From Acaryochloris thomasi RCC1774 (GTDB taxonomy: Bacteria > Cyanobacteriota > Cyanobacteriia > Thermosynechococcales > Thermosynechococcaceae), in the NCBI RefSeq assembly GCF_003231495.1, contig NZ_PQWO01000008.1, positions 1-32,000 on the forward strand: a stretch of DNA of 32,000 bases, given 5' to 3'. Below the pieces are notes generated by a model. It was not told the DNA's origin. It saw only the letters and a program-made list of their open reading frames with translations, and did no database searches. Below are positions 9,916-29,924 of the stretch, piece after piece. Made by a program: the position numbers and the translations under genes. Position 1 is the stretch's first letter. Every line of letters starts with the position of its first letter.

Positions 9916-10001
9916 GTCGTGCAGGCTTGCTGTCCCTGGCCTTGTGCCAATAAACCATCGGGGACCAACAGCTCTGCTTTAGCAATGGCTCGATCGAGCG
10001 G

Positions 10002-11863: not shown

Positions 11864-11941
11864 CCCCTGGAATACAATGCAACGTGCAGAGAAGACTGTG
11901 GAGACAGGCTAGACTAGCAGTAGTTCAATTTGGCCCTATCT

Positions 11942-15238: not shown

Positions 15239-16398
15239 GTGACGAACGCTTGCGACGATGGCGACTGATTCTCGGGGGCGGATCTGCTGACGGAATTGCT
15301 AGTGAGGGCTTTAGTCTCGGACCTACAGATGCATCGATGGATCAGGCACTCTCTTCTCTCTACGACGCTCAGGGCGGAGGGCGGTCAGGGGGCTTAGGCA
15401 GTTCTTCTCCTAAAGTGGCACGCTGGCTCGGTGATATCCGCAGTTATTTCCCCAGCTCGGTGGTGCGAGTCATGCAAAAAGATGCCCTAGAGCGGCTTAA
15501 TCTGCACCAGATGCTAATGGAGCCAGAAATGCTAGAGGCAGTGGAGCCAGACGTTCATATGGTGGCAAATCTGCTATCCCTAAGCGGTATTATGCCCAGC
15601 AAGACCAAAGAGACGGCTCGGATCGTGGTCAATCGAGTCGTCGAAGAACTGCTTAGGAAACTCTCTAACCCCCTGCAGCAGGCGGTGATGGGCAGTCTCA
15701 ACCGCGCCGTGCGGAACTCCCGTCCTCGTCACAACGAGATTGACTGGAATCGTACAATTCGAGCCAATTTGAAACATTATCAGCCGGAGTATCAGACCAT
15801 CATTCCTGAGCGGCGGATTGGCTTTGGCCGCAAGCGTTCGTCTCTCAAAGATATTGTGCTGTGCGTTGATCAGAGTGGATCGATGGCGACTTCTGTGGTC
15901 TATGCAAGCATCTTTGCGGCGGTCCTAGCCTCTCTACCAGCGGTCAAAACCCACATGGTGGTGTTCGATACGGCGATCGTTGATCTGACTGAGATGCTGC
16001 AAGATCCGGTGGACGTTCTGTTTGGAACACAGTTGGGGGGTGGAACCGATATCAATCGAGCTGTGAGCTATTGCCAAGGCCTAATCCGCAAGCCCGAAGA
16101 CACTATTTTTGTGTTGATTAGCGATCTATACGAGGGCGGAGATAATCGCTCAATGCTGAAGCGCATGGGGAGTTTGGTGCAAAGCGGTGTGCAGTGCGTT
16201 ACGCTGTTGGCCCTTAATGATGATGGTGCTCCTTGTTTTGATCATCAGAATGCAGCCAAGTTTGCGTCGTTGGGAATTCCTTCTTTTGCCTGCAGTCCTG
16301 ACCAGTTTCCGGGGCTGATGGCAGTTGCGATCGCACGTCAAGATCTCAGCCAATGGGCTGCAAAAGAAGAAATTGTAACAGCGGCCATGATGAAATGA
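15235..16398 (+). CDS. VWA (von Willebrand factor A) domain protein, CoxE-like
   Basis: MSDERLRRWRLILGG N-terminus and the MIDAS motif DQSGS (15868..15882). The start ATG overlaps the DUF5682 stop (ATGA at 15235..15238). The upstream part of the ORF-track entry (15019..15234) lies inside the DUF5682 gene and I reject it. Confidence 0.85.
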   Translation: MSDERLRRWRLILGGGSADGIASEGFSLGPTDASMDQALSSLYDAQGGGRSGGLGSSSPKVARWLGDIRSYFPSSVVRVMQKDALERLNLHQMLMEPEMLEAVEPDVHMVANLLSLSGIMPSKTKETARIVVNRVVEELLRKLSNPLQQAVMGSLNRAVRNSRPRHNEIDWNRTIRANLKHYQPEYQTIIPERRIGFGRKRSSLKDIVLCVDQSGSMATSVVYASIFAAVLASLPAVKTHMVVFDTAIVDLTEMLQDPVDVLFGTQLGGGTDINRAVSYCQGLIRKPEDTIFVLISDLYEGGDNRSMLKRMGSLVQSGVQCVTLLALNDDGAPCFDHQNAAKFASLGIPSFACSPDQFPGLMAVAIARQDLSQWAAKEEIVTAAMMK

Positions 16399-16411
16399 AC
16401 CGTATCCTTTT

Positions 16412-18172
16412 CTAGGAAGCACTTGCTATGTCCTGTAGCAAAGACTGGAATCGCTCCTGCTCAACCAGGGCAAATCCAGGTTCTAGGCGATCACGCTGGG
16501 CTAGGGCAAGACCTTTTTGAGCTTTGCCCTCTGCGGCCTCAGTATTTCCCTCCGCCAGCAGTAGTGCGGCCTCCGCCCTAAGCAAGGTATGTTCCTCAAT
16601 TAGAATGGTCTCTTGAATTTGATCAAACCATTGGCGAGCTAAATCTGATCGCTGACGGATACGAGCTTCAAAGAATGTGCCTTCCAGCAGCAGAGAAGCA
16701 CGCATGAGTTCAGGAAAATAGATAGCCATGCTGAGGATCTGATCTAGATAGTCACCTGCCTGCTGAAGCTCTCCTTGATCCAAGGTCATATGATAGGCAA
16801 TAAGTAGGCTCGATATGTGCGCCATTGAGGTTTCAGGAACGGCTAATAGCGGCTTGATAATGTTTGGATCTATGTCCCGGGGACGAATCCCCTGTTTCAG
16901 GTTGATATGAAATCGATGAAACGCCAAAGATCTTTGGCCTTGTAAATTATTTTGCAGCAGATCTAGTATTTTTCGACCATCTGTCGTTATATATCCCGAT
17001 CTACGAGGGATAAGATTGAAGACAGCAATATAAAAATTAGACATAGAGATAAGTGTGAACCACCAAATAAGGTGATAACGATTCATTAACTCCGGCAGGA
17101 ATAAGGGTATGACACCAATCAGGAAAAGTAAAAATGAGGCGATAGGACCACCTGCCATTAAAAACAGTAATTTTCGCCTTAAACAATGCATTGAACGAGG
17201 TGAAATCCCGACAAAACCTGCGACAAAACGACGACGCATTCGATGAAACTTCATTCCTTGAGAGGTGCGGACCCAAATAAATTTACCAACGGCAAAGCGA
17301 TCTAGCTCAGCTCCGTTGAGCCACCCGAGGAAGAAATGGCCAAGCTCATGGATCAAGACTGAAACATAGCTATAGGTCACGTAAAAAACAAGCAGCAACA
17401 AAGGATCTACGGAAGTTCCTGATGAAGATAAGGGCGGAAGAATCGTGTACCACACTGCCATTAGTAAAAGGGAAAAGAAGCAGGGAAGCAGTCGCCAACG
17501 TCGAGAGTTAGATCCTGGAGGCGTATCGTATGCAGACTGCCTTTGTGATTGAGATGAAGATCCTAGAAATTTATCGCGTTTAGACTTTCTTTTTAGTTGA
17601 GGTGGTATATATTTTTGCTTAGAGATCTGGCGCAGCCCCAAGCTTGTAATCGCACCATAAATGAGACCTCCTGTTAAACTGCCCATCAATGCAGAGATGC
17701 TATGAGACTGCTCCATGTCTCTATAGATAGCCGCGCATATTAGTCCGCCAATAAGAAATCCTGCAGCAAAAGCAATAGGGCCTATGATATTCCAACACCA
17801 TGCAGGCTTAAATCTCTGTCGTAGAATAAACCATTGAATAAGGCTAAAAAACGTTGCGTAAATGACCCCAATAATTACAAGTCCTGGAGATGGAATGCTC
17901 AGAGAGACAAGTCCCAAAAACAGGGGAAATAGGAGGGGAAATAAAGTACTGTTTATAATCCACAGTACTGAAGTCGAGAATTTTCGGCGGAGTATCACCC
18001 ACTGTAGTAAACCAGCCCACAAATGCAAAGATAGTAGGGCCGCTATTCCATAACCTATATAGTGATCGGCTGACAGAAAGTCGCCAATAAAAAAGGGTAC
18101 ACTCCCACCCATCCCATATCCGATGGTGTTACAGATAATCCATCGGAAATAGAAATTACGAGTCAGAGGCAA
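16412..18172 (-). CDS. M50 / site-2-protease-like membrane metalloprotease with an extra N-terminal polytopic module and a C-terminal TPR-like helical domain
   Basis: HELGH (17336..17350, minus strand) and a downstream NLIP…TTDG motif (NxxPxxxxDG type). The N-terminal ~190 aa contain an internal repeat (LLQWVILRRKF…W / LIQWFILRQRF…W). The C-terminus is helical-repeat rich. The start is uncertain: the ORF-track start is TTG, and the next ATG is at codon 21. The DNA is visibly more AT-rich than the flanks. Confidence 0.7.
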   Translation of the reverse strand: MPLTRNFYFRWIICNTIGYGMGGSVPFFIGDFLSADHYIGYGIAALLSLHLWAGLLQWVILRRKFSTSVLWIINSTLFPLLFPLFLGLVSLSIPSPGLVIIGVIYATFFSLIQWFILRQRFKPAWCWNIIGPIAFAAGFLIGGLICAAIYRDMEQSHSISALMGSLTGGLIYGAITSLGLRQISKQKYIPPQLKRKSKRDKFLGSSSQSQRQSAYDTPPGSNSRRWRLLPCFFSLLLMAVWYTILPPLSSSGTSVDPLLLLVFYVTYSYVSVLIHELGHFFLGWLNGAELDRFAVGKFIWVRTSQGMKFHRMRRRFVAGFVGISPRSMHCLRRKLLFLMAGGPIASFLLFLIGVIPLFLPELMNRYHLIWWFTLISMSNFYIAVFNLIPRRSGYITTDGRKILDLLQNNLQGQRSLAFHRFHINLKQGIRPRDIDPNIIKPLLAVPETSMAHISSLLIAYHMTLDQGELQQAGDYLDQILSMAIYFPELMRASLLLEGTFFEARIRQRSDLARQWFDQIQETILIEEHTLLRAEAALLLAEGNTEAAEGKAQKGLALAQRDRLEPGFALVEQERFQSLLQDIASAS

Positions 18173-18517
18173 TGTTTTTTGAGCAGAAGTCTGAGTAATG
18201 GGACTACTCCGTTTGCCGTTATCAGCACGTCGTATTGATGCAAAGGAGCAATGCCTGCTGCTTGCTCAAGCTACCCCATCTCTTTTGGGCATAAAAGCTT
18301 GAGGAGAAACATTCAGAACCGTTTGATATCCAATACACTATCTTTAGAGTGCCCACTTTTACGACTGGTCTACTAGATAGAGCAAGTGGATTATTTGATA
18401 TTAAATTGCTTAAGATTCCACGAGATAATACTGATGAAAACCATAGATTAATGGGTTTAGTTTAGTGATAATAATCAAGCAAGAACGTACTGATTCATGA
18501 AAACAGGTCTAGCAATT

Positions 18518-18673
18518 TCATAAAGCTATCCCGAGGAATCCTGATTTTTTGATCTGTTCGGCTCTATCGATTTCTAAAGCTAATGGGCTTTGCGATCTCA
18601 CCTTTACTGGCTGAGCAATCTCCTGAGTGAATTCGCAGAACACCTTGCGACTATCTTTATCAGTGAGACTCAT
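18518..18673 (-). CDS. Possible 51-aa ORF translationally coupled to the upstream reductase gene
   Basis: The minus-strand ATG (18671..18673) overlaps the TGA stop of the 18670..19881 gene (ATGA). It translates as MSLTDKDSRKVFCEFTQEIAQPVKVRSQSPLALEIDRAEQIKKSGFLGIAL. It is absent from the ORF track, whose shortest listed entry is 60 aa. I recognise no family. Confidence 0.25.
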   Translation of the reverse strand: MSLTDKDSRKVFCEFTQEIAQPVKVRSQSPLALEIDRAEQIKKSGFLGIAL

Positions 18674-19881
18674 ATGGGAACCTCAATCGTTGTTCCAGCC
18701 TGTCGTAATCGATCAGCCAGCACATCACCAAGGCCCGTCGCCGGGGTCAACACACCGCCTCGCTGAGGCCCACCCGGAAGGCGTTCAAAGTCTAGCGCCA
18801 AGGCCAAAGCTGATTCACAGAGAAACTTCACTGTCGAACGATTACCTGGATCGCCCGGATTATAAATCAGGCCCCGATGCTGTCCCCCCTCTTCGTCGAT
18901 AGCTAGCAACTGACAGCGGAACCATCCCTCATCCATTACTTGCTCAGACGGCCCCTCTCCCGGCTGCGGGAAATTGGGCTGCAGTAGTGAGCGGCGTACC
19001 CAAGGTTGCTGCATCATCGCGACCAGTAGGCCAGTCCCTACGGTGGTGACAGTTGCTTTCAGGCCCGATAAAGGCCCCTGAAACACAAGAGATTCTTGGT
19101 ATGTAAATTGAGAACCGTAGGGATCTTGCCATTGAGAGTAAAGAGCGCTGCTGCGACGGACAACTCGCGTGTTGACAGGCCCCATGAAAAAAGGCGCAAC
19201 CCATGCTCCCAGGTCTTGATCATACTGAGACCACTGCAGGTCCTCCGCTGCTGTCTCAGGTCGCACTTCAGGTGGATTGAGCAGATAGGGATCACCCATC
19301 TGTGACCATTGACCTGCATCGATTAAGTTATAGGCAGAAGCTAAAGTACCGCCATTGAAGCCGCCTGCCGCTTCAAAATAGGCTTTGACAACTTTGCAAC
19401 TTTTGCCCAGCTGCTGCAGATAGCGCACCATCAAGTAGGCTCCCAGATCTGAGGGGACAGAATCAAAGCCACAGAGGGGAATAATGCGGGTTCCTTGGGT
19501 TGCGGCCTGTTCGTGATAGGTTTCGATTAAGGAACGGACCCAGGCAGTTTCACCTGTAATATCGACGTAGTGAGTGTGTGAACGCACGCAGGCATCGACC
19601 ATTGCCTGACCGTAAAGCGCGAAGGGGCCTGCGGTTGTTAAAACGATGCGGGTTTGGGTTGCGATCGCATCTGTCCCAACCTGATCTCGGCCATCCGCCA
19701 CCAGAATATCGACCGTTTCACAGCCGACCTTCGTTCTGACAGCTTCTAGCTTTTGGCGATTACGCCCCGCGATCGCCCACTTGAGATGATCCGGCGCATG
19801 GTCTGCAAAATATTGAACCGTCTGCTGCCCTGTAAACCCACTGGCACCATAAAGCACAACATCATAGGTGCGTTCACTCAT
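18670..19881 (-). CDS. Saccharopine dehydrogenase-family NAD(P)-binding protein (trans-acting enoyl-reductase-like)
   Basis: YDVVLYGASGFTGQ Rossmann start, about 400 aa in length, and family-typical motifs GFDS-PSDLG and GG-NGGT. Confidence 0.85.
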   Translation of the reverse strand: MSERTYDVVLYGASGFTGQQTVQYFADHAPDHLKWAIAGRNRQKLEAVRTKVGCETVDILVADGRDQVGTDAIATQTRIVLTTAGPFALYGQAMVDACVRSHTHYVDITGETAWVRSLIETYHEQAATQGTRIIPLCGFDSVPSDLGAYLMVRYLQQLGKSCKVVKAYFEAAGGFNGGTLASAYNLIDAGQWSQMGDPYLLNPPEVRPETAAEDLQWSQYDQDLGAWVAPFFMGPVNTRVVRRSSALYSQWQDPYGSQFTYQESLVFQGPLSGLKATVTTVGTGLLVAMMQQPWVRRSLLQPNFPQPGEGPSEQVMDEGWFRCQLLAIDEEGGQHRGLIYNPGDPGNRSTVKFLCESALALALDFERLPGGPQRGGVLTPATGLGDVLADRLRQAGTTIEVPI

Positions 19882-20068
19882 TCCTAAAGACTATCCTCTC
19901 CATTTTGTTTATGCTTCAACACTAGCGGATTCCTCAATTCGTCGTGCAGCTTTTAGTTCGAGAATTAGACCTTTAAATCATTGGGCGGCAGTCGAGAAAC
20001 CAAGCGCAACTCTTGGCTGGGAATGAATCAAGTAGGATGAGAAAAAGACGCTGCGAAGGCATCTAGCC

Positions 20069-20767
20069 ATGACAACCGCTTTACCCAAAACGAACGCTGC
20101 ACTATCTACGGCGACATCAGCAGCTCCGCTGACAACAGAGATACGGGTTCTTTTAGAAGGGGTAAGTTGGGAAACCTTCGAGCAATTGCTAGAGGAAACC
20201 GGAGACCAACGGCACCAACGTTTTGCCTATCGAGATGGATTGTTGGAAATTATGGTTCCTTTGGCGGGACATGAAGAACCAATTAGGCTCTTCGATCAAT
20301 TATTGGCAGCAATTATTGATGAGCTAGAACTTGAATTCCGAAGCCTTGGCTCGCTGACCATGAAAAATCCTAAGCAGAAAAAGGGACTAGAACCTGATTG
20401 CTGTTTCTATATTCAAAATGAAGCAGTGGTTCGTGGCGTTGATGCTTTAGATTTTGAGGTTCATCCACCTCCCGATTTAGTGATTGAGGTCGATAACAGC
20501 AATTCTTCATTGAACAAGTTCCCGATCTATACAGCTCTCAAGGTTCCAGAAATCTGGCGTTTACGGTATGGCTCAATGACGATCTACCATTTGAATGCCG
20601 AGCAATCAGAGTATAAAACCCAAGATAAAAGTTTGGCGTTTTCGCAGTTGCCGGTGCAGGAGTTACCGCAGTTTGTCGAGCAGGCCAAGAAAATCGGGCA
20701 GCGGGCAGCCGTCCGAGAACTGGCGAAACGGGTCCGGCAGGTGCTAGCAGATTTAGCGAAAGATTAG
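20069..20767 (+). CDS. Uma2-family (DUF820) PD-(D/E)xK endonuclease-like protein
   Basis: …FAYRDGLLEIM-P…, EPDCCFY…, PPDLVIEVDNSNSS and …VPEIWR motifs characteristic of Uma2. Confidence 0.85.
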   Translation: MTTALPKTNAALSTATSAAPLTTEIRVLLEGVSWETFEQLLEETGDQRHQRFAYRDGLLEIMVPLAGHEEPIRLFDQLLAAIIDELELEFRSLGSLTMKNPKQKKGLEPDCCFYIQNEAVVRGVDALDFEVHPPPDLVIEVDNSNSSLNKFPIYTALKVPEIWRLRYGSMTIYHLNAEQSEYKTQDKSLAFSQLPVQELPQFVEQAKKIGQRAAVRELAKRVRQVLADLAKD

Positions 20768-20845
20768 AGAAAAAGACCCTCATGCAATAGACCGCTGGCG
20801 TGAATTGCTATTCTGAGCAAGGTGTGTAGACTATTGTGAGGCTTG

Positions 20846-21874
20846 ATGGGCAGACAGTACCGCGTTGCTGTACTTCCGGGTGAAGGCATCGGCCCTGAAG
20901 TTGTTGATGCAGCTTTAAAAATTTTGTATTTACTCGCAGATCTTGAAGGATTTGAGATCCAGGGAGACTATGGCCTGATCGGTCTACCTGCTCAAGAGAA
21001 GCTAGGCTCTTTTTTCCCTGAGACAACAGCTCAACTTTGCCAAGGCTCTGACGGCATCGTTTTTGGTGCGGTATCGCGGGGAGGGCTGCTAGAGCTGCGT
21101 CAGCATTTTGATTTTTTTATGAATCTGCGCCCGGTGCGATCGCATCCCCATCTTTTCCATAAATCCCCCCTCAAGCCAGAGCTATTGCAAGATGTCGATA
21201 TTCTATTCGTCCGCGAACTCGCCAGCGGTCTCTACTTTGGTCCCGCAGGCAGAGCAACAGATGGATCCTATGGCTATCACACCATGCGCTATAACGATTC
21301 AGAAATTCGGCGGATTGCCAAGGTCGCGCTGCAAAAGGCCCAGGAACGTCGCGGCCATCTGACCGTTGCCCACAAAGAGAATGCCCTGCCCCAGATTCCC
21401 TGGTGCCGTCTAGTGCAGGAGATGGCTCAAGACTTTCCAGATATCACTGTAGAACCAGTCCTGGTGGATAATTTAGCGATGCAGCTTGTGATGCACCCTC
21501 AGGATTTTGATGTGATTCTGGCGGGGAATTTGTTTGGTGATATTTTGAGCGATTTGGGAGGTGCGATCGCAGGTTCCATCGGCTTACTCGGCTCGGCCAG
21601 CTTCAATGAACGAGGATTAGGGCTTTACGAACCTGTTCACGGAACGGCTCCAGACATTGCAGGCAAAGGAATTGGCAATCCATTAGGCATGATTAGTAGT
21701 CTCACAATGATGCTCCAGCACTGGGGAGAACACGCCGCAGCTTCAAGGCTTGCGCAAGTTCAGAACCAGATTTTAGAGCAGGGATACCGCACAGCAGATT
21801 TGTATACAAAGAACCCTCAAGAGAAAAAGGTCAGCACCCAGGACTTAACCTCACTGTTTTGCAAGCGACTTTGA
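20846..21874 (+). CDS. 3-isopropylmalate dehydrogenase-family (beta-decarboxylating) dehydrogenase, divergent paralogue
   Basis: VLPGEGIGPEV, RELASGLYFG, NLFGDILSD and EPVHGTAPDIAGKGIGNP motifs. The segment that normally reads …GAVGGPKWD… is shortened. The ATG at 20846 lies one codon inside the TTG track start. Confidence 0.85.
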   Translation: MGRQYRVAVLPGEGIGPEVVDAALKILYLLADLEGFEIQGDYGLIGLPAQEKLGSFFPETTAQLCQGSDGIVFGAVSRGGLLELRQHFDFFMNLRPVRSHPHLFHKSPLKPELLQDVDILFVRELASGLYFGPAGRATDGSYGYHTMRYNDSEIRRIAKVALQKAQERRGHLTVAHKENALPQIPWCRLVQEMAQDFPDITVEPVLVDNLAMQLVMHPQDFDVILAGNLFGDILSDLGGAIAGSIGLLGSASFNERGLGLYEPVHGTAPDIAGKGIGNPLGMISSLTMMLQHWGEHAAASRLAQVQNQILEQGYRTADLYTKNPQEKKVSTQDLTSLFCKRL

Positions 21875-21927
21875 CACCGCTAAGATAGAAGTCACGAGAG
21901 CAGTATCGTTGTCTGCAGGCAAAGTTT

Positions 21928-22482
21928 ATGATTGCCGTCCCAAACTACATCAGTCCTGAAGAATATCTCGCTATCGAACGGCAAAGTGACATTCGCCATG
22001 AGTATCGCCGTGGTTTGGTGTATGCGATGGCCGGTGGCACAGATAATCACGATCGCATTGCTCTAAATCTTCTGACTCTGATTAATATTCAACTTGGTGA
22101 CTCAGACTGTCGATTTCACTCCGGCAATGTCAAGGTCAATTACCAAGATGAGTTTTATTACTATCCCGATGCATTTGTAACCTGCAATCCAAAAGACCGC
22201 GATGATCGCTATGTTAAGCGCCATCCAAAGCTGATCGTTGAAGTCCTTTCATCCAGCACAAAAATTTTTGATATTGGGAAAAAGTTTGAAGATTATCGAC
22301 GGATTCCAGCCTTAGAGGAGTATGTCTTGATTTCTCAAGAGACTCAGCGGGTGGAATGTCGCCGTCGTATATCTACAGAAGTTTGGGAAACCACTATCTA
22401 TGCAGCAGGGGAACAGGTAGTCCTCAAAAGTATTGGGTTGGAACTTGCGATTTCTGATCTGTATCGCGGTCTTGACGACTAA
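21928..22482 (+). CDS. Uma2-family (DUF820) endonuclease-like protein
   Basis: …EYLAIERQSDIRHEYRRGLVYAMAGG-DNHDRI-LNL… and …PKLIVEVLSSST… motifs. Confidence 0.85.
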   Translation: MIAVPNYISPEEYLAIERQSDIRHEYRRGLVYAMAGGTDNHDRIALNLLTLINIQLGDSDCRFHSGNVKVNYQDEFYYYPDAFVTCNPKDRDDRYVKRHPKLIVEVLSSSTKIFDIGKKFEDYRRIPALEEYVLISQETQRVECRRRISTEVWETTIYAAGEQVVLKSIGLELAISDLYRGLDD

Positions 22483-22585
22483 GAAGTGTTCTGTTGTATT
22501 TATTTCTTCTGAGCCGATGCATCCCAATGGCAGCCTCTGCTGCATGGCTTACTATTGAGGACATGCCCCAAACGAGAAGTGAGGT

Positions 22586-24313
22586 ATGACAAAGGAAAAA
22601 GTCCTGCAGCTTGGTAATGATATCAATACCGATGACATTATCCCAGCAAAACGCGGCACCAATGGCGATCCAGGCCATTTAAAGCGCTATGTACTGGAGC
22701 ATTTGATTGGTGTTGATCAACTTCTGCAGTATGACGTGATTGAAGCTGGTGAGAATTTTGGTTGCGGTTCCAGTCGAGAGTATGCACCTCTGGCGATTCA
22801 GGCAGCAGGCATCAAAGAAGTCCGGGCGCGATCCTTTGCGGAGATTTTCTATCGCAACAGTATCAATATTGGTTTGCCGCTAGAAACCTTTGCTGAACAG
22901 AGCCAAGATCCAGTCGTAACTGCTATTACCGAGGCAGGGGGATTATTCCCGTTCAACAAACAGCGACAACGAGGGGAGGTCCAACTTCCGAAAGGGAAAA
23001 CGCTGCCGCGACCGATGACGATGGCAGAGAAGATGCTGGCGCAGGCTTCAGGCAATGCCTACGTGAAGCCTGGAGAACTTGTGTTTGCTCAGGTGGATTT
23101 GGCGATGTCCCATGATGCGATCGCAGGTCCAGTGGCAGCCCTCTTCCATCAACATTTTGGTGCAGACGTAAAGGTTTGGGATCCGCAAAAGCTAGTGCTG
23201 GTGGCCGATCACTTCATTCAGATCAACGACATTAGGCCGGATACGGGTGCGCCAACGATGTATAAAAACATGGTTGCCTTTGCCCAAGAACAGAACTGTC
23301 ACCTCCTTGACATGGTGTCCCCCGGTGAAGCCGCAGGCATCTGTCATGTTCTACTGCCAGAACAGGGGTTTATTCGCCCCGGCATGATTGTGGCAGGGAC
23401 AGATTCCCATAGTTGCACCTACGGGGCCTTTGGAGCGTTTTCAACCGGCGTTGGCTCCACCGATATGGCCAACCTGTTTGCAATGGGCGATCTGTGGATC
23501 CGGGTGCCCGCAACGATCTTGATTGAGCTATCGGGAACGCTGCCCACCGGGGTCAGCGCTAAGGACATTATGCTTTTCATCTTGGGGCAGATCGGCTGTA
23601 GCGGCGCAACCAGTAAAGTGCTGGAGTTCCGTGGCTCAATCATTACTCAGTTGCCGATGGATGAGCGCATGACCCTCGCCAATATGGCGATTGAGTGCGG
23701 TGCCATGTGTGGACTCATTGCCCCCGACCAAGTGACAGAGCAATACGTCAAACAGCAGACGTCAGAGCCATTTGAGACAGTATTAAGTGATTTTGAGGCC
23801 GAATTTGAGCAGGTCTATCGCTTTGATCTGTCGGCGCTAGAACCACAGGTGGCGCGTCCGCCAAAGCCCGATCAGGTGGTGGACATCGGTGCGCTCGGAG
23901 ATGTGCCGATCACGCGAGCCTTTATCGGTTCCTGCACAGGGGGCAAGCTGCATGATTTAGAGCAGGCGGCGGCAGTATACAGCGCTCCAAGATCAGATGG
24001 GAAACAGCGCAGGATTAGCCCCGATGTACAGCTCTTTGTCGTGCCAGCATCTCAGGCAGTCCGGCATAAAGCAGAAGCTTTAGGCTATTTACAAACCCTG
24101 GAGCAGGCGGGTGCGCAGATTCTTAAATCAGGTTGCGGAGCCTGTATAAATGCGGGTGCAGGAACATTGGGCCGTAAAGAAACGGGAATTTATGCGACAA
24201 ATCGCAATTTTAAGGGGCGCAGTGGTGATCCCAGTGCCTATAATTATCTTGCATCTCCAAGGGTTGTGGCGATTTCAGCCCTGCGAGGCAAAATTACGGA
24301 CCAGCTCGATTGA
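22586..24313 (+). CDS. Aconitase-family dehydratase: LeuD-like small-subunit domain fused N-terminally to a LeuC-like large-subunit domain
   Basis: aa 1-~120: GNDINTDDIIPA, GENFGCGSSREYA and FYRNSINIGLP (LeuD/swivel domain). From about aa 144: MTMAEKML…VDLAMSHD…, GTDSHSCTYGA, IGSCTGG and GCGACINAG (LeuC/HacA type, with all three Fe-S Cys contexts). Confidence 0.85.
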   Translation: MTKEKVLQLGNDINTDDIIPAKRGTNGDPGHLKRYVLEHLIGVDQLLQYDVIEAGENFGCGSSREYAPLAIQAAGIKEVRARSFAEIFYRNSINIGLPLETFAEQSQDPVVTAITEAGGLFPFNKQRQRGEVQLPKGKTLPRPMTMAEKMLAQASGNAYVKPGELVFAQVDLAMSHDAIAGPVAALFHQHFGADVKVWDPQKLVLVADHFIQINDIRPDTGAPTMYKNMVAFAQEQNCHLLDMVSPGEAAGICHVLLPEQGFIRPGMIVAGTDSHSCTYGAFGAFSTGVGSTDMANLFAMGDLWIRVPATILIELSGTLPTGVSAKDIMLFILGQIGCSGATSKVLEFRGSIITQLPMDERMTLANMAIECGAMCGLIAPDQVTEQYVKQQTSEPFETVLSDFEAEFEQVYRFDLSALEPQVARPPKPDQVVDIGALGDVPITRAFIGSCTGGKLHDLEQAAAVYSAPRSDGKQRRISPDVQLFVVPASQAVRHKAEALGYLQTLEQAGAQILKSGCGACINAGAGTLGRKETGIYATNRNFKGRSGDPSAYNYLASPRVVAISALRGKITDQLD

Positions 24314-24325
24314 GGTGTAAGGTTC

Positions 24326-25786
24326 ATGATTCGAAGCGACGCGATCGCAAACCCAGCCAATGATCGGCAAATACATCAACAGTATGATGTCGTCGTAATC
24401 GGTGGCGGTCCTGCTGGATCGACACTGGCAATGCTGCTGGTACGGCAAGGGTATCAGGTCTTACTGCTGGAGCGAGCACAGTTCCCACGATTTCACGTAG
24501 GGGAGTCACTGCTGCCCGCCAGCCAACTGATCTGGGAAAAGTTAGGGATTACGGACCAGCTCCAGGATCTGAATTTTACCTACAAAGATTCAGCAGAGTT
24601 CCGCTTGGGCCTAGACCCGCGCAGTTCTGATTATGAATCAGCCTATGTCGACTTTACGGCTCCACAAAACTGGCCGCAGAAAGATTTCCCTGAGCATCCC
24701 GATGCCTATCAGGTAAAGCGCAGTGAGTTTGATTGGTTTTTACTGCAACAGGCGCGTTCCCAGGGAGTGACGGTGTGTGAGCAAGCCACCGTGAAAGAGG
24801 TTCTTTGGGAAGGTGACCGAGCAACGGGGATTTGTTGGCGATCAAAAACCGGCCAAAACTATACAACGATGGCCAACTGCGTCGCGGATTGTTCGGGGCG
24901 GCAGGCGCTGATTGGCCGCAGCCGCAAGCTAATCAAGACCGATCCGTTCCTGCAAACCTCAGCGGTCTTTGGTCACTTCCGCAACGTGACTCCGAATCCA
25001 GGGCGAGAGGGGGGTGCGATCGCAATGTACTTCATTGAAAGGGGCTGGCTGTGGTTTATCCCTGTTGGCCCAAACGAAATGAGCGTGGGCGTTGTCGTCA
25101 ATCGGCCTGACGATTGGCAAGGCCGATCACCCGAAGAAATTTTAATGACGTATATAAATCGCCATCAGTATTTGCGCGATCGCTTCATCAACGCTGAACA
25201 AATCTCTAAGGTTCGTATCCTGCAAAAGCTAGCCTACAGTGCCAAACGCAAAGCCGGGGACGGCTGGATATTAGTGGGAGACGCCAGTTTCTTTGTTGAC
25301 CCATTTCTCTCTTCTGGCGTCCAAGTTGCCTTCAAAACAGCAGACAAAGCCGCAGACGCCATTCACACATTCCTGCAGAGTCAAAGGAATCAACGGTCCT
25401 TTCACCAGTATCAGCACTGGTGCCGACAGTATGAATTCCATGTTTTTGTTACCATGCGTCTTCTCTACTGGATCATGGAGAGCCAGTCCGCCATGCAGAC
25501 CTTCATACAGGCGATAGGCTATAGACTGCAAAACAGACCCGACCCGATTGTTCGTCGGTTTGTAGCTTGGTCCCTCGGCTACTTTGATCGCTTTCACGGG
25601 GCGCTTTACTGTCTATGGCTTGGCTTTAGCCTGATGGCAGGAGTGGGCTGGCTAAGGCGGCATTTATTTCGCCGACCAGACTGGAGCCACCCCTCCGAGT
25701 TTTGCGACCAACCCAGCATCGATATTCCTAAATCAATCGCGCCTCAGAATCAAGCACAAAATTCCTTTGCCAAGCCTTTGGGTTGA
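24326..25786 (+). CDS. FAD-dependent oxidoreductase, flavin-dependent-halogenase-like
   Basis: YDVVVIGGGPAGS dinucleotide fold, FPRFHVGESLLP, GWLWFIP (WxWxIP, 25046..25063), FFVDPFLSSGV and a Lys (K87) about 27 residues after the GES motif. The C-terminal ~60 aa contain a hydrophobic stretch (LYCLWLGFSLMAGVGWL). It starts 12 nt after the dehydratase stop. Confidence 0.65.
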   Translation: MIRSDAIANPANDRQIHQQYDVVVIGGGPAGSTLAMLLVRQGYQVLLLERAQFPRFHVGESLLPASQLIWEKLGITDQLQDLNFTYKDSAEFRLGLDPRSSDYESAYVDFTAPQNWPQKDFPEHPDAYQVKRSEFDWFLLQQARSQGVTVCEQATVKEVLWEGDRATGICWRSKTGQNYTTMANCVADCSGRQALIGRSRKLIKTDPFLQTSAVFGHFRNVTPNPGREGGAIAMYFIERGWLWFIPVGPNEMSVGVVVNRPDDWQGRSPEEILMTYINRHQYLRDRFINAEQISKVRILQKLAYSAKRKAGDGWILVGDASFFVDPFLSSGVQVAFKTADKAADAIHTFLQSQRNQRSFHQYQHWCRQYEFHVFVTMRLLYWIMESQSAMQTFIQAIGYRLQNRPDPIVRRFVAWSLGYFDRFHGALYCLWLGFSLMAGVGWLRRHLFRRPDWSHPSEFCDQPSIDIPKSIAPQNQAQNSFAKPLG

Positions 25787-25867
25787 ATCCTAACTGGAGG
25801 CGCTTTTATTGAGCCTTCGGTCTGGGAGGGTCAGCCCTAGCTCGTCGCAAAACTAACCGGAGAAACA

Positions 25868-26371
25868 ATGCATCGCTTAATTTCTATTGCCTTAGGTTCT
25901 ACCTTGCTGCTGATCTCACCCTCAATAGCAAAAGCACAGACGCCTCCGAACCGTCCATCAATCTCGGATCTCGAGGCAACAGGTCTAGTGATCAAACCCA
26001 GCCCCTATAGCGTTCAAGAAACAGCAGAGCGCCTGACGAAAGTTCTGGAAGCCAAAGGTCTAAGAATCTTTACGACCATCGACCACAGCGAGAATGCAGC
26101 TCAGGCGGGACTAACACTTGCGGCAACCCAGGTCATCTTGTTTGGAAACCCCAAACTCGGCACACCCTTGATGCAGTGCAGCCCCAGCGTTGCCATTGAT
26201 TTACCCCAGAAAGTACTGATCTGGGAAACGGCAGAGGGCGTACAGCTCGCCTACAACAATCCCGCTTATCTGTCTGGACGCCACCGACTGCGGGGGTGTG
26301 GTCAAGAAGTAGTCGCTCAAATCTCTAAAGCCCTCAATGGACTAACCGATGCCGCCCTCAAAGCTGATTAA
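25868..26371 (+). CDS. Secreted DUF302-domain protein
   Basis: Signal peptide (…SPSIAKA/QT). The pattern IFTTIDHSENA…G-…T-VILFGNPK-GTPLM…IDLP-KVLIWE is typical of DUF302. Confidence 0.8.
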   Translation: MHRLISIALGSTLLLISPSIAKAQTPPNRPSISDLEATGLVIKPSPYSVQETAERLTKVLEAKGLRIFTTIDHSENAAQAGLTLAATQVILFGNPKLGTPLMQCSPSVAIDLPQKVLIWETAEGVQLAYNNPAYLSGRHRLRGCGQEVVAQISKALNGLTDAALKAD

Positions 26372-26436
26372 CGGGATTGAGCCTCCCTCGTCGTCCGCAG
26401 CAGCACAATCGTTCTCGGGCCTAGCTTAGACTGTCG

Positions 26437-27666
26437 CTAGTCAATATTCGTTCTCTTACCGCTCATGCTTTTATAGCCAGTGTTGTAGTAGAAAAAGCCA
26501 GATCTCTTCAGCGATCCATCGCGGGCGAACAGGCTGTAATTGACAACAGAACCGCCCGAGAAACTGATGCGTTTGCCCGAAAACATTGTGGTAAAGAGGG
26601 ACTGCCGCGTTCGATGGCTACCCCCTGCAACGTCAATATCTAAGTGCAAAACATGCGCCCCTTGATCGTCAAGGATTTTTTCTAGCTTATTAGCCTGAAT
26701 AATCGCCAGCAACGGTGGGTTCCCAAACGGATCTTCTTGACCAAGCGGCACAAGGAGAGCGTCTAGAAAAGCATCAACCTCATCATTGAGATCTAGCAGC
26801 GTGGAGTCCGCATATTCTGAAGCGGCTTTAGATCTCAAGCGCATCAGATCCGCAAGCTCAGATCCCACAAGGCCCTCTAAACTAGATTCGTCAAGGCTAT
26901 CTAGGCTGGTCAAATAGAAGCTAGGGTTATAGACCTTGACGGGAATATCTTTTTTTTGAATATGCGACGCCACCGCAGAGATAAAGGCGTTCGGATTGAG
27001 TTCAAAGTCAGGCTCAAAGGTAATTTGATCTTTGCTGCGGAAGAGAGCCACAAACTCTAGGACAGAGCGGGTAAAGGTTGTCGGTAGCGCTAAAGACGAT
27101 AGATCTGTAATCCCTCTCGAGCCCCTTGTTCCTGGACGAGAAGAACGGAAAATAATTCCAAGGTCAGCATACCTTTGCTTGAATTCTCTGAGTTTGACCT
27201 TCAAGAGACGGTAGGCGGTCAGATCGGAGAAGATTTCTTGATCGTAGATAATTAAAGAATTGATCCCTTCAATGTCGCTAATGTCTTTCGAGATTGATCC
27301 AGCTACCTTGTTCATCGCCTCATAGGCCAGAATTCTAGACTCTACCGTCTGAAAGCTACCCTGCTGAACACTGGTATCGCTGGAGTCGAGTGGCTCAGTG
27401 GCACTCGTTGTCGGTGCAATAACGGTTCCCTTAAGCCTTGTAAGCTCAATCTGTTGCTGAAGCAAATTATATTCAGCCTCAAGCTGTCGCTGCTTTTCGA
27501 GGATCTTATTTAAGCGCTGTTCTGCAGGTGACTCAACCTCTTCTTCCTGTGGTGGGAAATCAAAAAAGTCCTGGGATACAGCTGTCTTAGTAGTGCACAA
27601 ACCATCAAATAAGCCCAGTAGAATCAGACTTGTTGCGAAGAAAAAAGAGGCTTTATATTTGTACAT
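26437..27666 (-). CDS. Secreted or membrane-anchored hypothetical protein with an N-terminal coiled-coil (orphan)
   Basis: I prefer the ATG at 27666 (MYKYKASFFFATSLILLGLF…) to the TTG at 27681. A hydrophobic N-terminus is followed by a heptad-like region (AEQRLNKILEKQRQLEAEYNLLQQQIELTRLK). I recognise no family. The gene is AT-richer than its neighbours. Confidence 0.6.
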   Translation of the reverse strand: MYKYKASFFFATSLILLGLFDGLCTTKTAVSQDFFDFPPQEEEVESPAEQRLNKILEKQRQLEAEYNLLQQQIELTRLKGTVIAPTTSATEPLDSSDTSVQQGSFQTVESRILAYEAMNKVAGSISKDISDIEGINSLIIYDQEIFSDLTAYRLLKVKLREFKQRYADLGIIFRSSRPGTRGSRGITDLSSLALPTTFTRSVLEFVALFRSKDQITFEPDFELNPNAFISAVASHIQKKDIPVKVYNPSFYLTSLDSLDESSLEGLVGSELADLMRLRSKAASEYADSTLLDLNDEVDAFLDALLVPLGQEDPFGNPPLLAIIQANKLEKILDDQGAHVLHLDIDVAGGSHRTRQSLFTTMFSGKRISFSGGSVVNYSLFARDGSLKRSGFFYYNTGYKSMSGKRTNID

Positions 27667-28091: not shown

Positions 28092-29924
28092 ATGCAGATG
28101 ACCCAACCGTCGAACTTTGTTGAGCTACTGCGTGATCAAGCACAGCGACAACCGGCTCAGGTTGCCTATATTGCCCTCAAGAACGGAGAGAAAGAAGATC
28201 GTCGCATTACCTACGGCGAGCTTGACCAGCAGGCACGTGCGATCGCAACTCATCTAACCACCCAGATTTCCCTTGGTGAGCGGGCGCTATTAGTCTATCC
28301 CTACGAATCGGGCATCGAATTTATCACCGCTTTTCTCGGGTGCCTCTATGCAGGCATCGTAGCTGTCCCCAGTCATCCCCCACGCAGCCGCTATACCCTC
28401 AACGACCTCAGTGCGCGTCTAGAGACAGCAAAGGCAAAAGCAGTTCTCAGCACCCAGTCTCTAGGCAATAAGCTCAAGCGTCAGCTCTCAGACCCTGAGA
28501 TACCCGCCTCTCAGATGCAGCTTCAGTGGATCACCCCCAGCGCCCTACCGATCGCAGAGGCTACAGACTGGAAAACCCCAGATATTAACGGTGACACCCT
28601 GGCGTTCTTGCAGTACACCTCCGGCTCCACCGGCACACCTAAAGGGGTGATGATTGACCATCGCTGCCTGCTCTACAATCAGCAGGTTTTACAGCAGGCA
28701 TTCGGCCATTCAGACCAGTCCATCGGCGTCGGTTGGCTGCCGCTGTTTCACGACATGGGGCTGATCGGTAACGCGCTGCAGGCGCTGTACCTGGGCACCT
28801 CCTGCATTCTGATGTCGCCCATTGATTTCATTCAAAAGCCAATTCGCTGGCTGCGGGCCATTTCTCACTACGGAGCCACCACCAGCGGTGGACCTAATTT
28901 TGCCTACGATCTGCTGTGCAAGCAGGTCAAGGATGAGCAGCTTGATGATTTAGACCTCAGCCGTTGGCAAGTCGCATTCTCTGGCGCTGAAGCAGTCAAG
29001 GTGGAGACGATGGATCGCTTTGCCGCTAAGTTTGAGCGCTGCGGCTTTCAGCGACGGGCATTCTACTCCTGTTACGGAATGGCGGAGGCGACGCTGTTCA
29101 TTACCGGAGGCGAAAAGGCGGAACTGCCTCAGGTGCAATATGTTCAGGCAGAGGCGTTAGAAAAGAATCAGGTAGCGGTGGCGAGTCCGCAGCAGAAGCG
29201 GGCGCGGGCACTCGTGAGCTGTGGGCGACCTTGGTTAGACGGAAAGGTTGCGATCGCAAATCCCAACACACTTACCCGCTGTCCCCCCGATCAGGTTGGC
29301 GAAATCTGGTTCTCTAGCGCCGGTCTCGGTCAAGGCTACTGGCAACAGCCGGATCTAACCGAGCGGACCTTTCAGGCACGCCTAGAAACCGGCGAAGGCC
29401 CCTTCCTCAGGACCGGCGATTTAGGCTTTATGCTAGACGGTCATCTGTTCATCACCGGACGCCTACACGATGTTTTAGTCTTCTGGGGACTCAACCACTA
29501 CCCACACCACATCGAACACACCGTCAGCACTTGTCATCCCGGCTTTAGCCCCGACTGCGCCGCCTTTTCCATTCCCGTAGAAGGCCAAGAGCGCCTAGTG
29601 ATTGCCCAAGAAGTCCAGCGGTCCCAGCGTCGATCTCTCAAAGCCAAAGACATCGCCCATAAGATTCACTGGGTCGCCTTTGAAGAGCACTTCGTAGATG
29701 TTCACGCCCTCGCCCTGATCAACCCCGGTGGCCTGCCTAAAACCCCCAGCGGCAAAATTCAGCGAAGCGCATGCCGTCAGCAGTTTCTCGACGGCACTCT
29801 CAAAGTCATCGACGAATGGCGCTCGCCGCCCCAAATGCCCACAGATATTCCAGGTCTGATGCGCTACTATTTCAATCCCCTCAACCACCTCAAACGCTAC
29901 ATCGCTCAGGCGCAGTGGCCGTAG
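28092..29924 (+). CDS. Fatty acyl-AMP ligase (FAAL); copy 2
   Basis: 610 aa, collinear with copy 1 (same LQYTSGSTGTPKGVM, WLPLFHDMGLIGN, TSGGPNFAY and GEGPFLRTGD motifs). It has an extra ~30-aa C-terminal tail (…PPQMPTDIPGLMRYYFNPLNHLKRYIAQAQWP). Confidence 0.85.
   Translation: MQMTQPSNFVELLRDQAQRQPAQVAYIALKNGEKEDRRITYGELDQQARAIATHLTTQISLGERALLVYPYESGIEFITAFLGCLYAGIVAVPSHPPRSRYTLNDLSARLETAKAKAVLSTQSLGNKLKRQLSDPEIPASQMQLQWITPSALPIAEATDWKTPDINGDTLAFLQYTSGSTGTPKGVMIDHRCLLYNQQVLQQAFGHSDQSIGVGWLPLFHDMGLIGNALQALYLGTSCILMSPIDFIQKPIRWLRAISHYGATTSGGPNFAYDLLCKQVKDEQLDDLDLSRWQVAFSGAEAVKVETMDRFAAKFERCGFQRRAFYSCYGMAEATLFITGGEKAELPQVQYVQAEALEKNQVAVASPQQKRARALVSCGRPWLDGKVAIANPNTLTRCPPDQVGEIWFSSAGLGQGYWQQPDLTERTFQARLETGEGPFLRTGDLGFMLDGHLFITGRLHDVLVFWGLNHYPHHIEHTVSTCHPGFSPDCAAFSIPVEGQERLVIAQEVQRSQRRSLKAKDIAHKIHWVAFEEHFVDVHALALINPGGLPKTPSGKIQRSACRQQFLDGTLKVIDEWRSPPQMPTDIPGLMRYYFNPLNHLKRYIAQAQWP

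What the first reader, a model, noticed from the sequence alone, without database searches (positions are those of the whole stretch)
20846..25786. Non-canonical IPMDH-like gene, permuted LeuD-LeuC fusion and halogenase-like flavoprotein in one same-strand module
Three same-strand genes look like a specialised 2-oxoacid-processing set rather than housekeeping leuBCD. First, the IPMDH-family protein keeps its catalytic motifs (NLFGDILSD, EPVHGTAPDIAG) but has a shortened region where LeuB normally reads GAVGGPKWD. Second, the isomerase is a single 575-aa polypeptide with the small-subunit (swivel) domain at the N-terminus of the large subunit. This is the reverse of the fungal LeuC-LeuD fusion order and differs from the usual two-gene bacterial arrangement. 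The loop after GNDINTDDIIPA (KRGTNGDPGH), which in related enzymes contributes to substrate choice, does not look like the LeuD loop I know. Third, the next gene starts 12 nt downstream and encodes a flavoprotein with halogenase-type motifs. By analogy with the leuABCD-derived homo-amino-acid pathways of cyanobacteria (the HphABCD type), this could be a chain-elongation or isomerisation-decarboxylation module feeding a modified, possibly halogenated, small molecule. No LeuA/HphA-like condensing enzyme is present in the window.
Basis: partly seen in the sequence, partly recalled or inferred. Interest (0 to 1): 0.7.

Follow-up and report, generated by a model that had tools for sequence, protein, structure and literature searches.

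The report
HphB/HphCD homologation genes plus halogenase
The two leucine-pathway look-alike genes belong to the already described cyanobacterial HphB/HphCD enzymes that lengthen aromatic amino-acid precursors by one carbon, and the only unusual point is that in a few close relatives a halogenase-type gene directly follows them.

Summary
The ORFs, motifs, domain order and the 12-nt gap are all as described. The window is from Acaryochloris thomasi RCC1774.

The IPMDH-like gene and the LeuD-LeuC fusion are not housekeeping leuBCD. They belong to the known cyanobacterial HphB/HphCD family (3-benzylmalate dehydrogenase and isomerase, homophenylalanine/homotyrosine pathway).
- The fusion is 66-85% identical to about 570-aa proteins in 161 species genomes.
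- An HphB-like gene lies directly upstream in 78 of 116 testable loci, often with hphA and NRPS genes nearby.
- The "shortened GAVGGPKWD region" is the published lid deletion of HphB.
- The D-then-C domain order is the family norm and resembles aconitase B.

The third gene carries every hallmark of a CndH/CmlS-type flavin-dependent halogenase. It follows the fusion gene in only 4 of the 7 nearest relatives and in none of about 99 other loci. A functional link is therefore plausible but confined to one lineage.

No hphA or NRPS lies in the window, and the rest of the genome could not be searched. A Uma2 gene has been inserted between hphB and hphCD.

Verdict: a new member of a known kind with a local halogenase twist. 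Interest is modest.

The parts
20846..21874 (+). hphB-like gene. It encodes a lid-less 3-(aryl)alkylmalate dehydrogenase of the IPMDH family. The ORF opens at TTG 20843, and the likely start is ATG 20846.
   Evidence: Pfam Iso_dh, E = 1e-93. The score against the TIGR00169 leuB model is 311.6 bits, below its 353.2 cutoff. A 13-14-aa deletion lies at the GGPKWD..RPE lid, between S78 and R79 (about nt 21076/21077), relative to PDB IPMDHs. The protein is 60-69% identical to IPMDH-like genes directly upstream of the fusion in 78 of 116 loci, and 80% identical in L081.
21928..22482 (+). Uma2-family (putative restriction endonuclease-like) gene inserted between hphB and hphCD.
   Evidence: Pfam Uma2, E = 7e-34. 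The gene is absent from this position in L081 and in the typical loci. There hphB and hphCD abut or lie about 50 nt apart.
22586..24313 (+). hphCD-like gene. It encodes a single-chain aconitase-family isomerase, with the small-subunit domain first and the large-subunit domain second.
   Evidence: Domain hits are. The protein is 66-85% identical to about 570-aa cyanobacterial proteins, some of which JGI names '3-benzylmalate isomerase'. The AF2 model has pTM 0.82. It matches MJ0499/MJ1003 large subunits at TMt 0.89, and its best whole-chain match is AcnB at TMq 0.78.
22586..22975 (+). Swivel (LeuD-like) domain, residues 1-130. It includes the specificity loop PAKRGTNGDPGH (nt 22643-22678) and the GCGSSRE motif.
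   Evidence: Residues 3-100 and 110-133 align to M. jannaschii small subunits 3VBA and 2PKP. About 40 residues of the LeuD beta sub-domain are missing. The loop reads KRGTNG against YLVY/YLRT. S62, S63 and R64 are invariant.
23012..24313 (+). Large-subunit (LeuC/HacA-like) part, residues 143-575. It carries DSH (273-275) and the Fe-S ligands C450, C517 and C520.
   Evidence: NF001614 scores 465 bits and TIGR01343 hacA_fam 443 bits, both above cutoff. TIGR00170 leuC scores 228 bits against a cutoff of 560. The part aligns with 4KP1. The cysteines are invariant in 38 sequences.
24326..25786 (+). Flavin-dependent halogenase-like gene of the CndH/CmlS/PltA type.
   Evidence: Best PDB hits are halogenases: 3E1T CndH, 8ZOP, CmlS, PltA, Bmp2 and Mpy16. 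GxGxxG, K87, WxWxIP and FxDPxxSxG are invariant across 19 homologues down to 36% identity. The protein is 100% identical to P0121 of Acaryochloris thomasi RCC1774, which is mis-named kynurenine 3-monooxygenase. A homologue lies directly downstream of the fusion in L081/L082, L083 and L084.
25868..26371 (+). DUF302 gene, the next gene on the same strand.
   Evidence: Pfam DUF302. A 72%-identical homologue sits in the same position in L081/L082. It is absent from L083 and L084.
20069..20767 (+). Second, distantly related Uma2 gene, upstream of hphB. Context only.
   Evidence: Pfam Uma2, E = 2e-21. It is not significantly similar to the other Uma2 copy (27% identity over 110 aa, E = 0.077).

Best explanation
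Genes 20846-21874 and 22586-24313 encode HphB and HphCD family enzymes. These are the last two dedicated enzymes of the cyanobacterial 2-oxoacid homologation pathway.

Proposed mechanism:
- HphCD is a [4Fe-4S] aconitase-type dehydratase/hydratase built as one chain, with the swivel domain in front of the catalytic domains as in aconitase B. It isomerises 2-benzylmalate (or 2-(4-hydroxybenzyl)malate) to the 3-substituted malate.
- HphB is an IPMDH that lacks the active-site lid. It oxidatively decarboxylates that product with NAD+ to 2-oxo-4-phenylbutyrate or its 4-hydroxy analogue.
- A general aminotransferase then gives homophenylalanine or homotyrosine.
- The condensing enzyme HphA must be encoded elsewhere in the genome.

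The adjacent halogenase-like gene, with DUF302 after it, is a lineage-specific neighbour. It may chlorinate or brominate the phenolic product or a downstream metabolite.

Shown here: family membership, intact catalytic residues and the synteny statistics. Inferred: the substrate, the presence of hphA elsewhere and any role of the halogenase.
For: 1. Family of the fusion. It is 66-85% identical over its full length to about 570-aa proteins of many cyanobacteria. [quoted passage not shown]
2. Synteny. An HphB-like gene lies directly upstream on the same strand in 78 of 116 testable loci. Among 71 loci with at least 5 kb on both sides, 27 hold an HphA-like gene and 41 hold NRPS genes.
3. Lid deletion. 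The IPMDH-like protein has the 13-14-aa lid deletion reported as the distinguishing feature of N. punctiforme HphB (bioRxiv 10.64898/2026.06.15.732371). Its score against the leuB equivalog model is below cutoff.
4. Type of large subunit. It is archaeal IPMI/HACN-type, not bacterial LeuC. TIGR00170 scores 228 bits against a cutoff of 560.
5. Catalytic residues. All Fe-S ligands and catalytic residues are invariant.
6. Substrate specificity. Against 46 classical hph-cluster proteins, only 9 mostly conservative sub-clade-specific substitutions were found. The specificity loop is of the same type.
7. Patchy distribution. Only 161 of 185,579 species genomes have the fusion, which argues against a housekeeping role.
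8. Dispersed hphA. Genomes with an 'orphan' fusion do encode HphA-like proteins on other contigs: P01_D01_bin.1, P01_F01_bin.150 and Synechococcus PCC 7335.
9. Halogenase neighbour. The halogenase hallmarks are intact. The fusion-halogenase pair recurs in three other contigs whose flanks otherwise differ. The stop and start codons overlap in two of them.
Against: - No hphA, NRPS, carrier protein or aminotransferase lies in the 32-kb window.
- The source genome could not be searched. No A. thomasi HphA appeared among the top 120 hits, which is inconclusive.
- The window's fusion falls in a heterogeneous clade. Many members there are orphans in housekeeping contexts, and hphA is never adjacent in the 7 nearest relatives.
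- A Uma2 gene interrupts the hphB-hphCD pair.
- No enzyme of this sub-clade has been assayed.
- The halogenase link is absent from about 99 loci found through the fusion and from 3 of the 7 nearest relatives. The halogenase's more distant homologues sit in PKS clusters without hph genes.
Confidence: 0.72

Rival explanations
1. The fusion-halogenase pair, with or without the HphB-like enzyme, is a separate module. It would process a non-Hph substrate, for example a polyketide or fatty-acyl-derived alkyl- or aryl-malate or a starter unit. It would feed a halogenated PKS/FAAL product rather than supply homophenylalanine or homotyrosine to an NRPS.
For: In L083 and L084 the pair sits beside type I PKS genes and a conserved unknown protein of about 580 aa. 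No hphA or hphB is nearby. The window holds two FAAL genes and a DUF1400 hydrolase whose homologue directly precedes the fusion in L084. More distant halogenase homologues lie in PKS and type III PKS clusters.
Against: The specificity loop and active-site residues do not differ from the classical HphCD clade. Only 9 conservative sub-clade-specific changes were found. The window and L081 keep the HphB-like partner. The window itself holds no PKS. The PKS neighbours may be coincidental.
Confidence: 0.13
2. The halogenase-like gene is only a neighbour. HphB/HphCD act as usual, and the flavoprotein serves an unrelated pathway, such as phenolic polyketide or lipid halogenation.
For: No halogenase homologue was found in about 99 loci retrieved through the fusion. 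It is absent from 3 of the 7 nearest relatives (L001, L144, L145). Homologues at 49-59% identity occur without hph genes.
Against: The pair is kept in four contigs with 62-80% halogenase identity although the flanks are rearranged. The stop and start codons overlap in L083 and L084, and the gap in the window is 12 nt.
Confidence: 0.4
3. The genes are a decaying remnant of a former hph/NRPS cluster and have no current pathway role.
For: A Uma2 gene is inserted between the genes. No hphA or NRPS lies within 32 kb. Neighbourhoods are highly variable in the nearest relatives.
Against: Both ORFs are full length. Every residue that is invariant in the family is present, including the Fe-S ligands and the catalytic Ser, Arg, Asp and His. 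The protein is 82-85% identical to its nearest relatives, with no frameshifts.
Confidence: 0.08
4. These are the organism's housekeeping leucine-pathway enzymes (LeuB and a fused LeuCD).
For: They belong to the same superfamilies. The best NCBIfam hit for the dehydrogenase is the leuB model.
Against: The scores fall below the leuB and leuC equivalog cutoffs. The lid deletion is present. The large subunit is of the archaeal type. Only 161 species genomes carry the fusion. N. punctiforme has a separate IPMDH that is 37% identical to HphB (bioRxiv 10.64898/2026.06.15.732371).
Confidence: 0.03

Closest known systems
HphCD (3-benzylmalate isomerase) of the cyanobacterial hphABCD homophenylalanine/homotyrosine pathway. 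It was characterised in Nostoc punctiforme PCC 73102 (Koketsu et al. 2013, cited from PMC12961565 and PMC6562525; the paper itself was not readable here).
   Same: - One chain of about 570 aa, with the small-subunit domain before the large-subunit domain.
- 66-75% identity to proteins in classical hphA-hphB-hphCD-NRPS loci.
- The same specificity-loop type.
- An HphB-like gene upstream.
   Different: - No hphA or NRPS lies within the window.
- A Uma2 gene separates it from hphB.
- A halogenase gene follows it.
- It has a 7-residue insertion (YSAPRSDGKQRR region) that the other members lack.
- It belongs to a separate, context-variable sub-clade.
HphB (3-benzylmalate dehydrogenase, N. punctiforme)
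   Same: IPMDH fold with intact catalytic motifs. It lacks the lid segment of about 14 aa that is conserved in IPMDHs (bioRxiv 10.64898/2026.06.15.732371).
   Different: Identity is only 60-69% to HphB-like proteins of classical clusters. Activity and cofactor use are untested.
Archaeal-type isopropylmalate isomerase and homoaconitase (M. jannaschii MJ0499/MJ1277 and MJ1003/MJ1271; PDB 4KP1, 3VBA, 4KP2, 2PKP)
   Same: These are the closest solved structures. The large part is 38-40% identical with TMt 0.89. The small part is 32-36% identical. The Fe-S and catalytic motifs are the same.
   Different: - The archaeal enzymes have two subunits, whereas this is one permuted chain.
- The loop reads KRGTNG instead of YLVY/YLRT.
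- About 40 residues of the small subunit's beta sub-domain are missing.
Aconitase B (E. coli AcnB, PDB 1L5J)
   Same: The domain order is the same, with the swivel domain 4 N-terminal to domains 1-3. It is the best whole-chain structural match, at TMq 0.78.
   Different: Identity is 18%. AcnB has an extra N-terminal HEAT-like domain and acts on citrate and 2-methylisocitrate.
Fungal Leu1 (LeuC-LeuD fusion)
   Same: It is also a single-chain IPM isomerase (own knowledge, not tested here).
   Different: The domain order is the opposite, large then small, and the lineage is the bacterial LeuC/LeuD type.
CndH / CmlS / PltA-type ('variant B') flavin-dependent halogenases
   Same: These are the best PDB matches (E = 1e-54 to 1e-43). 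The Lys, GxGxxG, WxWxIP and FxDPxxSxG motifs are conserved.
   Different: The scores fall below every curated equivalog cutoff: CmlS 193 bits against 900, and QhpG 151 against 240. The C-terminal 100 residues are distinct and partly hydrophobic. No carrier protein or flavin reductase was seen nearby.

Membership tests
HphCD (3-benzylmalate isomerase family) | A single polypeptide that combines aconitase small-subunit and large-subunit domains | tested here: met
   The small domain covers residues 3-133 and the large domain residues 143-575.
HphCD (3-benzylmalate isomerase family) | Close full-length similarity to proteins encoded in literature-described hphABCD clusters | tested here: met
   The protein is 71% identical to the fusion of M. 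aeruginosa LEGE 91341 (L018), and 71% identical to those of P. agardhii NIVA-CYA 126/8 and Snowella 249/25. The hphABCD genes of these strains are described in PMC9594780 and PMC8402340.
HphCD (3-benzylmalate isomerase family) | Genomic pairing with an HphB-type dehydrogenase | tested here: met
   The HphB-like gene lies upstream, separated only by the inserted Uma2 gene. The pairing is seen in 78 of 116 loci.
HphCD (3-benzylmalate isomerase family) | An HphA (benzylmalate synthase) in the same genome | not testable with these tools
   None is present in the window. The source genome is not retrievable. The top-120 HphA search was inconclusive.
HphCD (3-benzylmalate isomerase family) | 2-/3-benzylmalate isomerase activity | not testable with these tools
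   This needs an enzyme assay. Only indirect support is available, from the conserved loop and active site.
HphB (lid-less IPMDH) | Iso_dh fold with catalytic motifs and without the lid of about 14 aa that is conserved in IPMDH | tested here: met
   The feature is defined in bioRxiv 10.64898/2026.06.15.732371.
Housekeeping LeuB / LeuC / LeuD | A score at or above the curated equivalog cutoffs (TIGR00169, TIGR00170, TIGR02084) | tested here: not met
   The scores are 311.6 bits against 353.2, 228 against 560, and 97 against 246.
Housekeeping LeuB / LeuC / LeuD | Near-universal presence in the lineage | tested here: not met
   Only 161 of 185,579 species genomes carry a relative of the fusion.
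Flavin-dependent halogenase | GxGxxG, WxWxIP, the catalytic Lys and the FxDPxxSxG motif | tested here: met
   G26-G31, W241/W243/P246, K87 and F323-G331 are invariant in 19 homologues.
Flavin-dependent halogenase | Halogenating activity on a defined substrate, with a partner flavin reductase | not testable with these tools
   No Pfam hit to a flavin reductase or carrier-protein family among the window ORFs of at least 120 aa that were scanned. The activity needs an experiment.

The most novel reading that the evidence does not exclude
In a small Acaryochloris/Thermosynechococcaceae-related lineage, an HphCD-type aryl-malate isomerase may have become operonically coupled to a CndH-type halogenase, sometimes together with HphB and DUF302. 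This would form an NRPS-independent module that makes a halogenated homo-aromatic 2-oxoacid or amino acid, or a halogenated aryl starter unit for neighbouring PKS/FAAL enzymes. No such biosynthetic logic has been described for the Hph pathway.
Probability: 0.2. Interest if true: 0.55.

Novelty: new member of a known kind. Interest (0 to 1): 0.3.

Why it matters
As it stands, the finding adds one more HphB/HphCD pair to a known cyanobacterial homo-amino-acid pathway. It also corrects database names: 'LeuC', 'homoaconitate hydratase' and 'kynurenine 3-monooxygenase'.

Its practical value has three parts:
- It documents that the HphCD family is a permuted, AcnB-like single-chain isomerase with a truncated swivel domain and a distinct specificity loop.
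- It shows that many cyanobacteria carry dispersed or orphan hphCD genes outside NRPS clusters.
- It flags a small lineage in which hphCD is directly followed by a halogenase. If the two are truly coupled, this points to halogenated homo-aromatic building blocks and to enzymes useful for engineering the homologation pathway.

Tried and rejected
- **Housekeeping leuBCD.** Rejected on the curated cutoffs, the lid deletion, the archaeal-type large subunit and the patchy distribution.
- **General conserved three-gene module.** Rejected. tblastn found no halogenase homologue in 80 genome loci or 56 metagenome loci.
- **hphA or NRPS remnants in the window.** None found at E <= 10 beyond the FAAL adenylation domains.
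- **Retrieving the source genome or its flanks.** Exact look-ups of four proteins failed. These were three window-encoded proteins and P0121, the 100%-identical database copy of the window's flavoprotein. A. thomasi is also absent from the genome-contig hits.
- **Searching for an A. thomasi HphA with an upper-clade HphA query.** Not seen in the top 120, which is inconclusive.
- **Promoter and terminator scan across 19800-26600.** Counts equalled the shuffled expectation, so nothing can be said about co-transcription.
- **Repeats around the Uma2 insertion.** Only HIP1-like palindromes and chance matches were found, with no target duplication.
- **Koketsu 2013 and the ChemBioChem 2024 review.** Neither could be read.
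- **Sub-clade-specific substitutions as a sign of new specificity.** Only 9 were found and most are conservative.


Full report
**What is there**

The window carries five consecutive plus-strand ORFs:
- an IPMDH-family gene at 20843/20846-21874;
- a Uma2 gene at 21928-22482;
- a 575-aa aconitase-family gene at 22586-24313;
- a 486-aa flavoprotein gene at 24326-25786, starting 12 nt downstream;
- a DUF302 gene at 25868-26371.

The 575-aa protein has an aconitase small-subunit (swivel) domain at its N-terminus. An archaeal-type isopropylmalate isomerase/homoaconitase large subunit follows at residues 143-575. The Fe-S ligands are present (C450, C517, C520), as are the catalytic DSH and GCGSSRE motifs.

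The flavoprotein is 100% identical to a protein of Acaryochloris thomasi RCC1774, where it is annotated 'kynurenine 3-monooxygenase'. This identifies the source organism. The genome itself could not be retrieved with the tools.

**The two leu-like genes are HphB and HphCD family members**

A protein search found full-length homologues of about 570 aa at 69-86% identity in many cyanobacteria, including Planktothrix, Microcystis, Nostoc, Snowella, Hydrococcus and Synechococcus PCC 7335. JGI names several of them '3-benzylmalate isomerase'.

A scan of one genome per species found the fusion in 161 of 185,579 genomes, all apparently cyanobacterial. The distribution is therefore patchy, as expected for an accessory gene.

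Synteny analysis covered those 80 loci, 56 metagenome loci and the contigs fetched by protein look-up.
- An IPMDH-like gene 60-69% identical to the window's lies directly upstream on the same strand in 78 of 116 testable loci.
- It is typically about 50 nt away or overlapping.
- Among 71 loci with at least 5 kb on each side, 27 hold an HMGL/LeuA-like gene of about 395 aa (HphA, which JGI names 'benzylmalate synthase'), and 41 hold NRPS genes.

This is the hphA-hphB-hphCD arrangement described next to anabaenopeptin, spumigin and other NRPS clusters (PMC8402340, PMC6562525, PMC9564503). One of my loci, L018, is from M. aeruginosa LEGE 91341. Its hphABCD genes inside an anabaenopeptin cluster are reported in PMC9594780.

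Alignment to solved IPMDHs shows a clean 13-14-residue deletion at the GGPKWD...RPE segment. A 2026 preprint on N. punctiforme HphB describes exactly this: a 14-aa 'lid' that is conserved in IPMDHs and absent in HphB. The authors propose that its absence explains the enzyme's side-chain promiscuity (bioRxiv 10.64898/2026.06.15.732371). The protein also scores below the leuB equivalog cutoff, at 311.6 bits against 353.2.

In the fusion, the small-subunit part aligns to M. jannaschii small subunits over residues 3-100 and 110-133. About 40 residues of the LeuD beta sub-domain are missing. The specificity loop reads KRGTNG where IPMI has YLVY and homoaconitase has YLRT. That loop type (PA[KNQ]R[GAC]T[NT]) is shared by the classical hph-cluster proteins.

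An AlphaFold2 model gave pLDDT 75.8 and pTM 0.82. Confidence was low only around the cofactor-binding loops. The model matches the MJ0499/MJ1003 large subunits at TMt 0.89. As a whole chain it best matches E. coli aconitase B at TMq 0.78. From my own knowledge, aconitase B is the known aconitase with the swivel domain placed before domains 1-3. The D-then-C order is therefore real, but it is how all members of this family are built.

**Where the window's copy sits in the family**

I built a neighbour-joining tree of 84 fusion proteins, annotated by gene context. It separates two groups.
- The 'classical' clade includes Nostocales, Microcystis and Oscillatoriales. Nearly all its members have hphB, often with hphA and NRPS genes.
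- The second clade is heterogeneous. It includes the window, many orphan copies in housekeeping contexts, and a group linked to a divergently transcribed hphA plus a large PKS/NRPS but lacking hphB.

The window's sub-clade comprises the window, L081, L083, L001, L084, L144 and L145. Against 46 classical proteins it shows only nine fixed differences at otherwise conserved positions. Most are conservative and none lies in a catalytic motif. I therefore see no sequence evidence for a changed reaction.

Genomes with orphan fusions do encode HphA-like proteins on other contigs: P01_D01_bin.1, P01_F01_bin.150 and Synechococcus PCC 7335. A dispersed hphA in A. thomasi is therefore plausible but unproven.

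**The flavoprotein**

Its best solved relatives are all flavin-dependent halogenases: CndH, 8ZOP, CmlS, PltA, Bmp2, ChlB4 and Mpy16. The catalytic Lys (K87), GxGxxG, WxWxIP and FxDPxxSxG are invariant in 19 homologues down to 36% identity. It reaches no curated equivalog cutoff.

No homologue occurs in any of about 99 loci retrieved through the fusion gene that have enough downstream sequence to test. Three contigs retrieved through the halogenase's own nearest homologues do carry the fusion gene immediately upstream:
- L081/L082: hphB-hphCD-halogenase-DUF302, the same order as the window but without Uma2.
- L083: PKS-hphCD-halogenase-GNAT.
- L084: DUF1400 hydrolase-hphCD-halogenase.

The stop and start codons overlap in L083 and L084. 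Among the seven nearest relatives, the halogenase follows the fusion in four. It is absent in three: L001, L144 and L145. More distant halogenase homologues (49-59% identity) sit in PKS, type III PKS or CylC-type clusters, or alone, without hph genes.

The linkage is therefore real but restricted to one lineage. It may reflect either function or shared ancestry. Chlorinated homotyrosine residues are known in cyanopeptolins (PMC2515870), so a halogenated Hty product is chemically reasonable. Nothing in the window demonstrates it.

**What is missing or odd in this locus**

There is no hphA, NRPS, carrier protein, aminotransferase or flavin reductase in the 32 kb. A Uma2 gene is inserted between hphB and hphCD, and another lies upstream of hphB. 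The two copies are only distantly related, and no insertion scars were found. Promoter and terminator scans were uninformative.

**Verdict**

The features taken as novel are defining traits of an already characterised family.

The best explanation is an HphB/HphCD pair that carries out the isomerisation and oxidative decarboxylation steps of aromatic 2-oxoacid homologation, with hphA elsewhere (confidence about 0.7). The halogenase coupling is a lineage-specific possibility, at about 0.2-0.35.

Novelty: a new member of a known kind. Interest is modest.

Noticed in passing
window 1127-2914 (+) and 28092-29924 (+); 2965-3756 (+); 29932-31554 (-): The window holds two paralogous fatty acyl-AMP ligase genes, 53% identical to each other. 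An Asp/Asn beta-hydroxylase-family gene follows the first. The second is convergent with a DUF1400 alpha/beta hydrolase gene. No ACP or PKS was found in the window. A DUF1400 homologue (51% identity) directly precedes the fusion gene in L084.
   Followed up: partly
L007, L008, L019, L020, L024, L074 (also L107, L113), around locus coordinates 8600-21700: A separate group of HphCD-like genes has a distinct context. A methyltransferase-like ORF (in four of the six genome loci) and a hexapeptide-transferase-like ORF (in five of them) lie upstream. A divergently transcribed HphA-like gene and a PKS/NRPS of about 2,500-2,900 aa lie downstream. No HphB-like gene occurs within 10 kb. This looks like a different, uncharacterised use of the homologation enzymes.
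   Followed up: no
L001, L004, L006, L009, L010, L026, L035, L038, L071, L080, L144 and others: Many HphCD-like genes are 'orphans' in housekeeping neighbourhoods. L001, for example, has LexA, Hsp20, carbonic anhydrase and an NTP-transferase nearby. At least three such genomes encode HphA-like proteins on other contigs.
   Followed up: partly
L083 5084-6826 (-) and L084 11413-13191 (-): A conserved protein of about 580 aa with no Pfam match (49% identity between the two) lies just downstream of the hphCD-halogenase pair in both PKS-associated contigs.
   Followed up: partly
window 8454-8909 (+) and 9289-9915 (+): Two neighbouring genes encode CBS-domain proteins with C-terminal CP12 domains. 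The first has only a partial CP12.
   Followed up: no
window 12794-15238 (+) and 15019-16398 (+): A DUF5682 protein of 814 aa is followed by a VWA/CoxE-like protein. The listed ORFs overlap by about 220 nt, so the GTG start of the second is probably over-extended.
   Followed up: no
window 6197-6568 (-): A 123-aa ORF matches only the 'Recombinase' domain (PF07508), which suggests a truncated serine-recombinase remnant.
   Followed up: no
window 24326-25786; protein P0121: The public annotation of this protein in A. thomasi RCC1774 is 'kynurenine 3-monooxygenase'. Its motifs and PDB matches indicate a flavin-dependent halogenase instead.
   Followed up: yes
L127 4506-7147: A metagenome contig holds a more distant pair, with a fusion 51% identical and an IPMDH-like gene 41% identical to the window's. 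It is possibly an outlying lineage of the same fused architecture.
   Followed up: no
window 23978-24013 (fusion residues 465-476): The window's fusion protein has a 7-residue insertion (in YSAPRSDGKQRR) relative to all 15 aligned homologues. It lies in a variable surface segment after the GSCTGGK motif.
   Followed up: no
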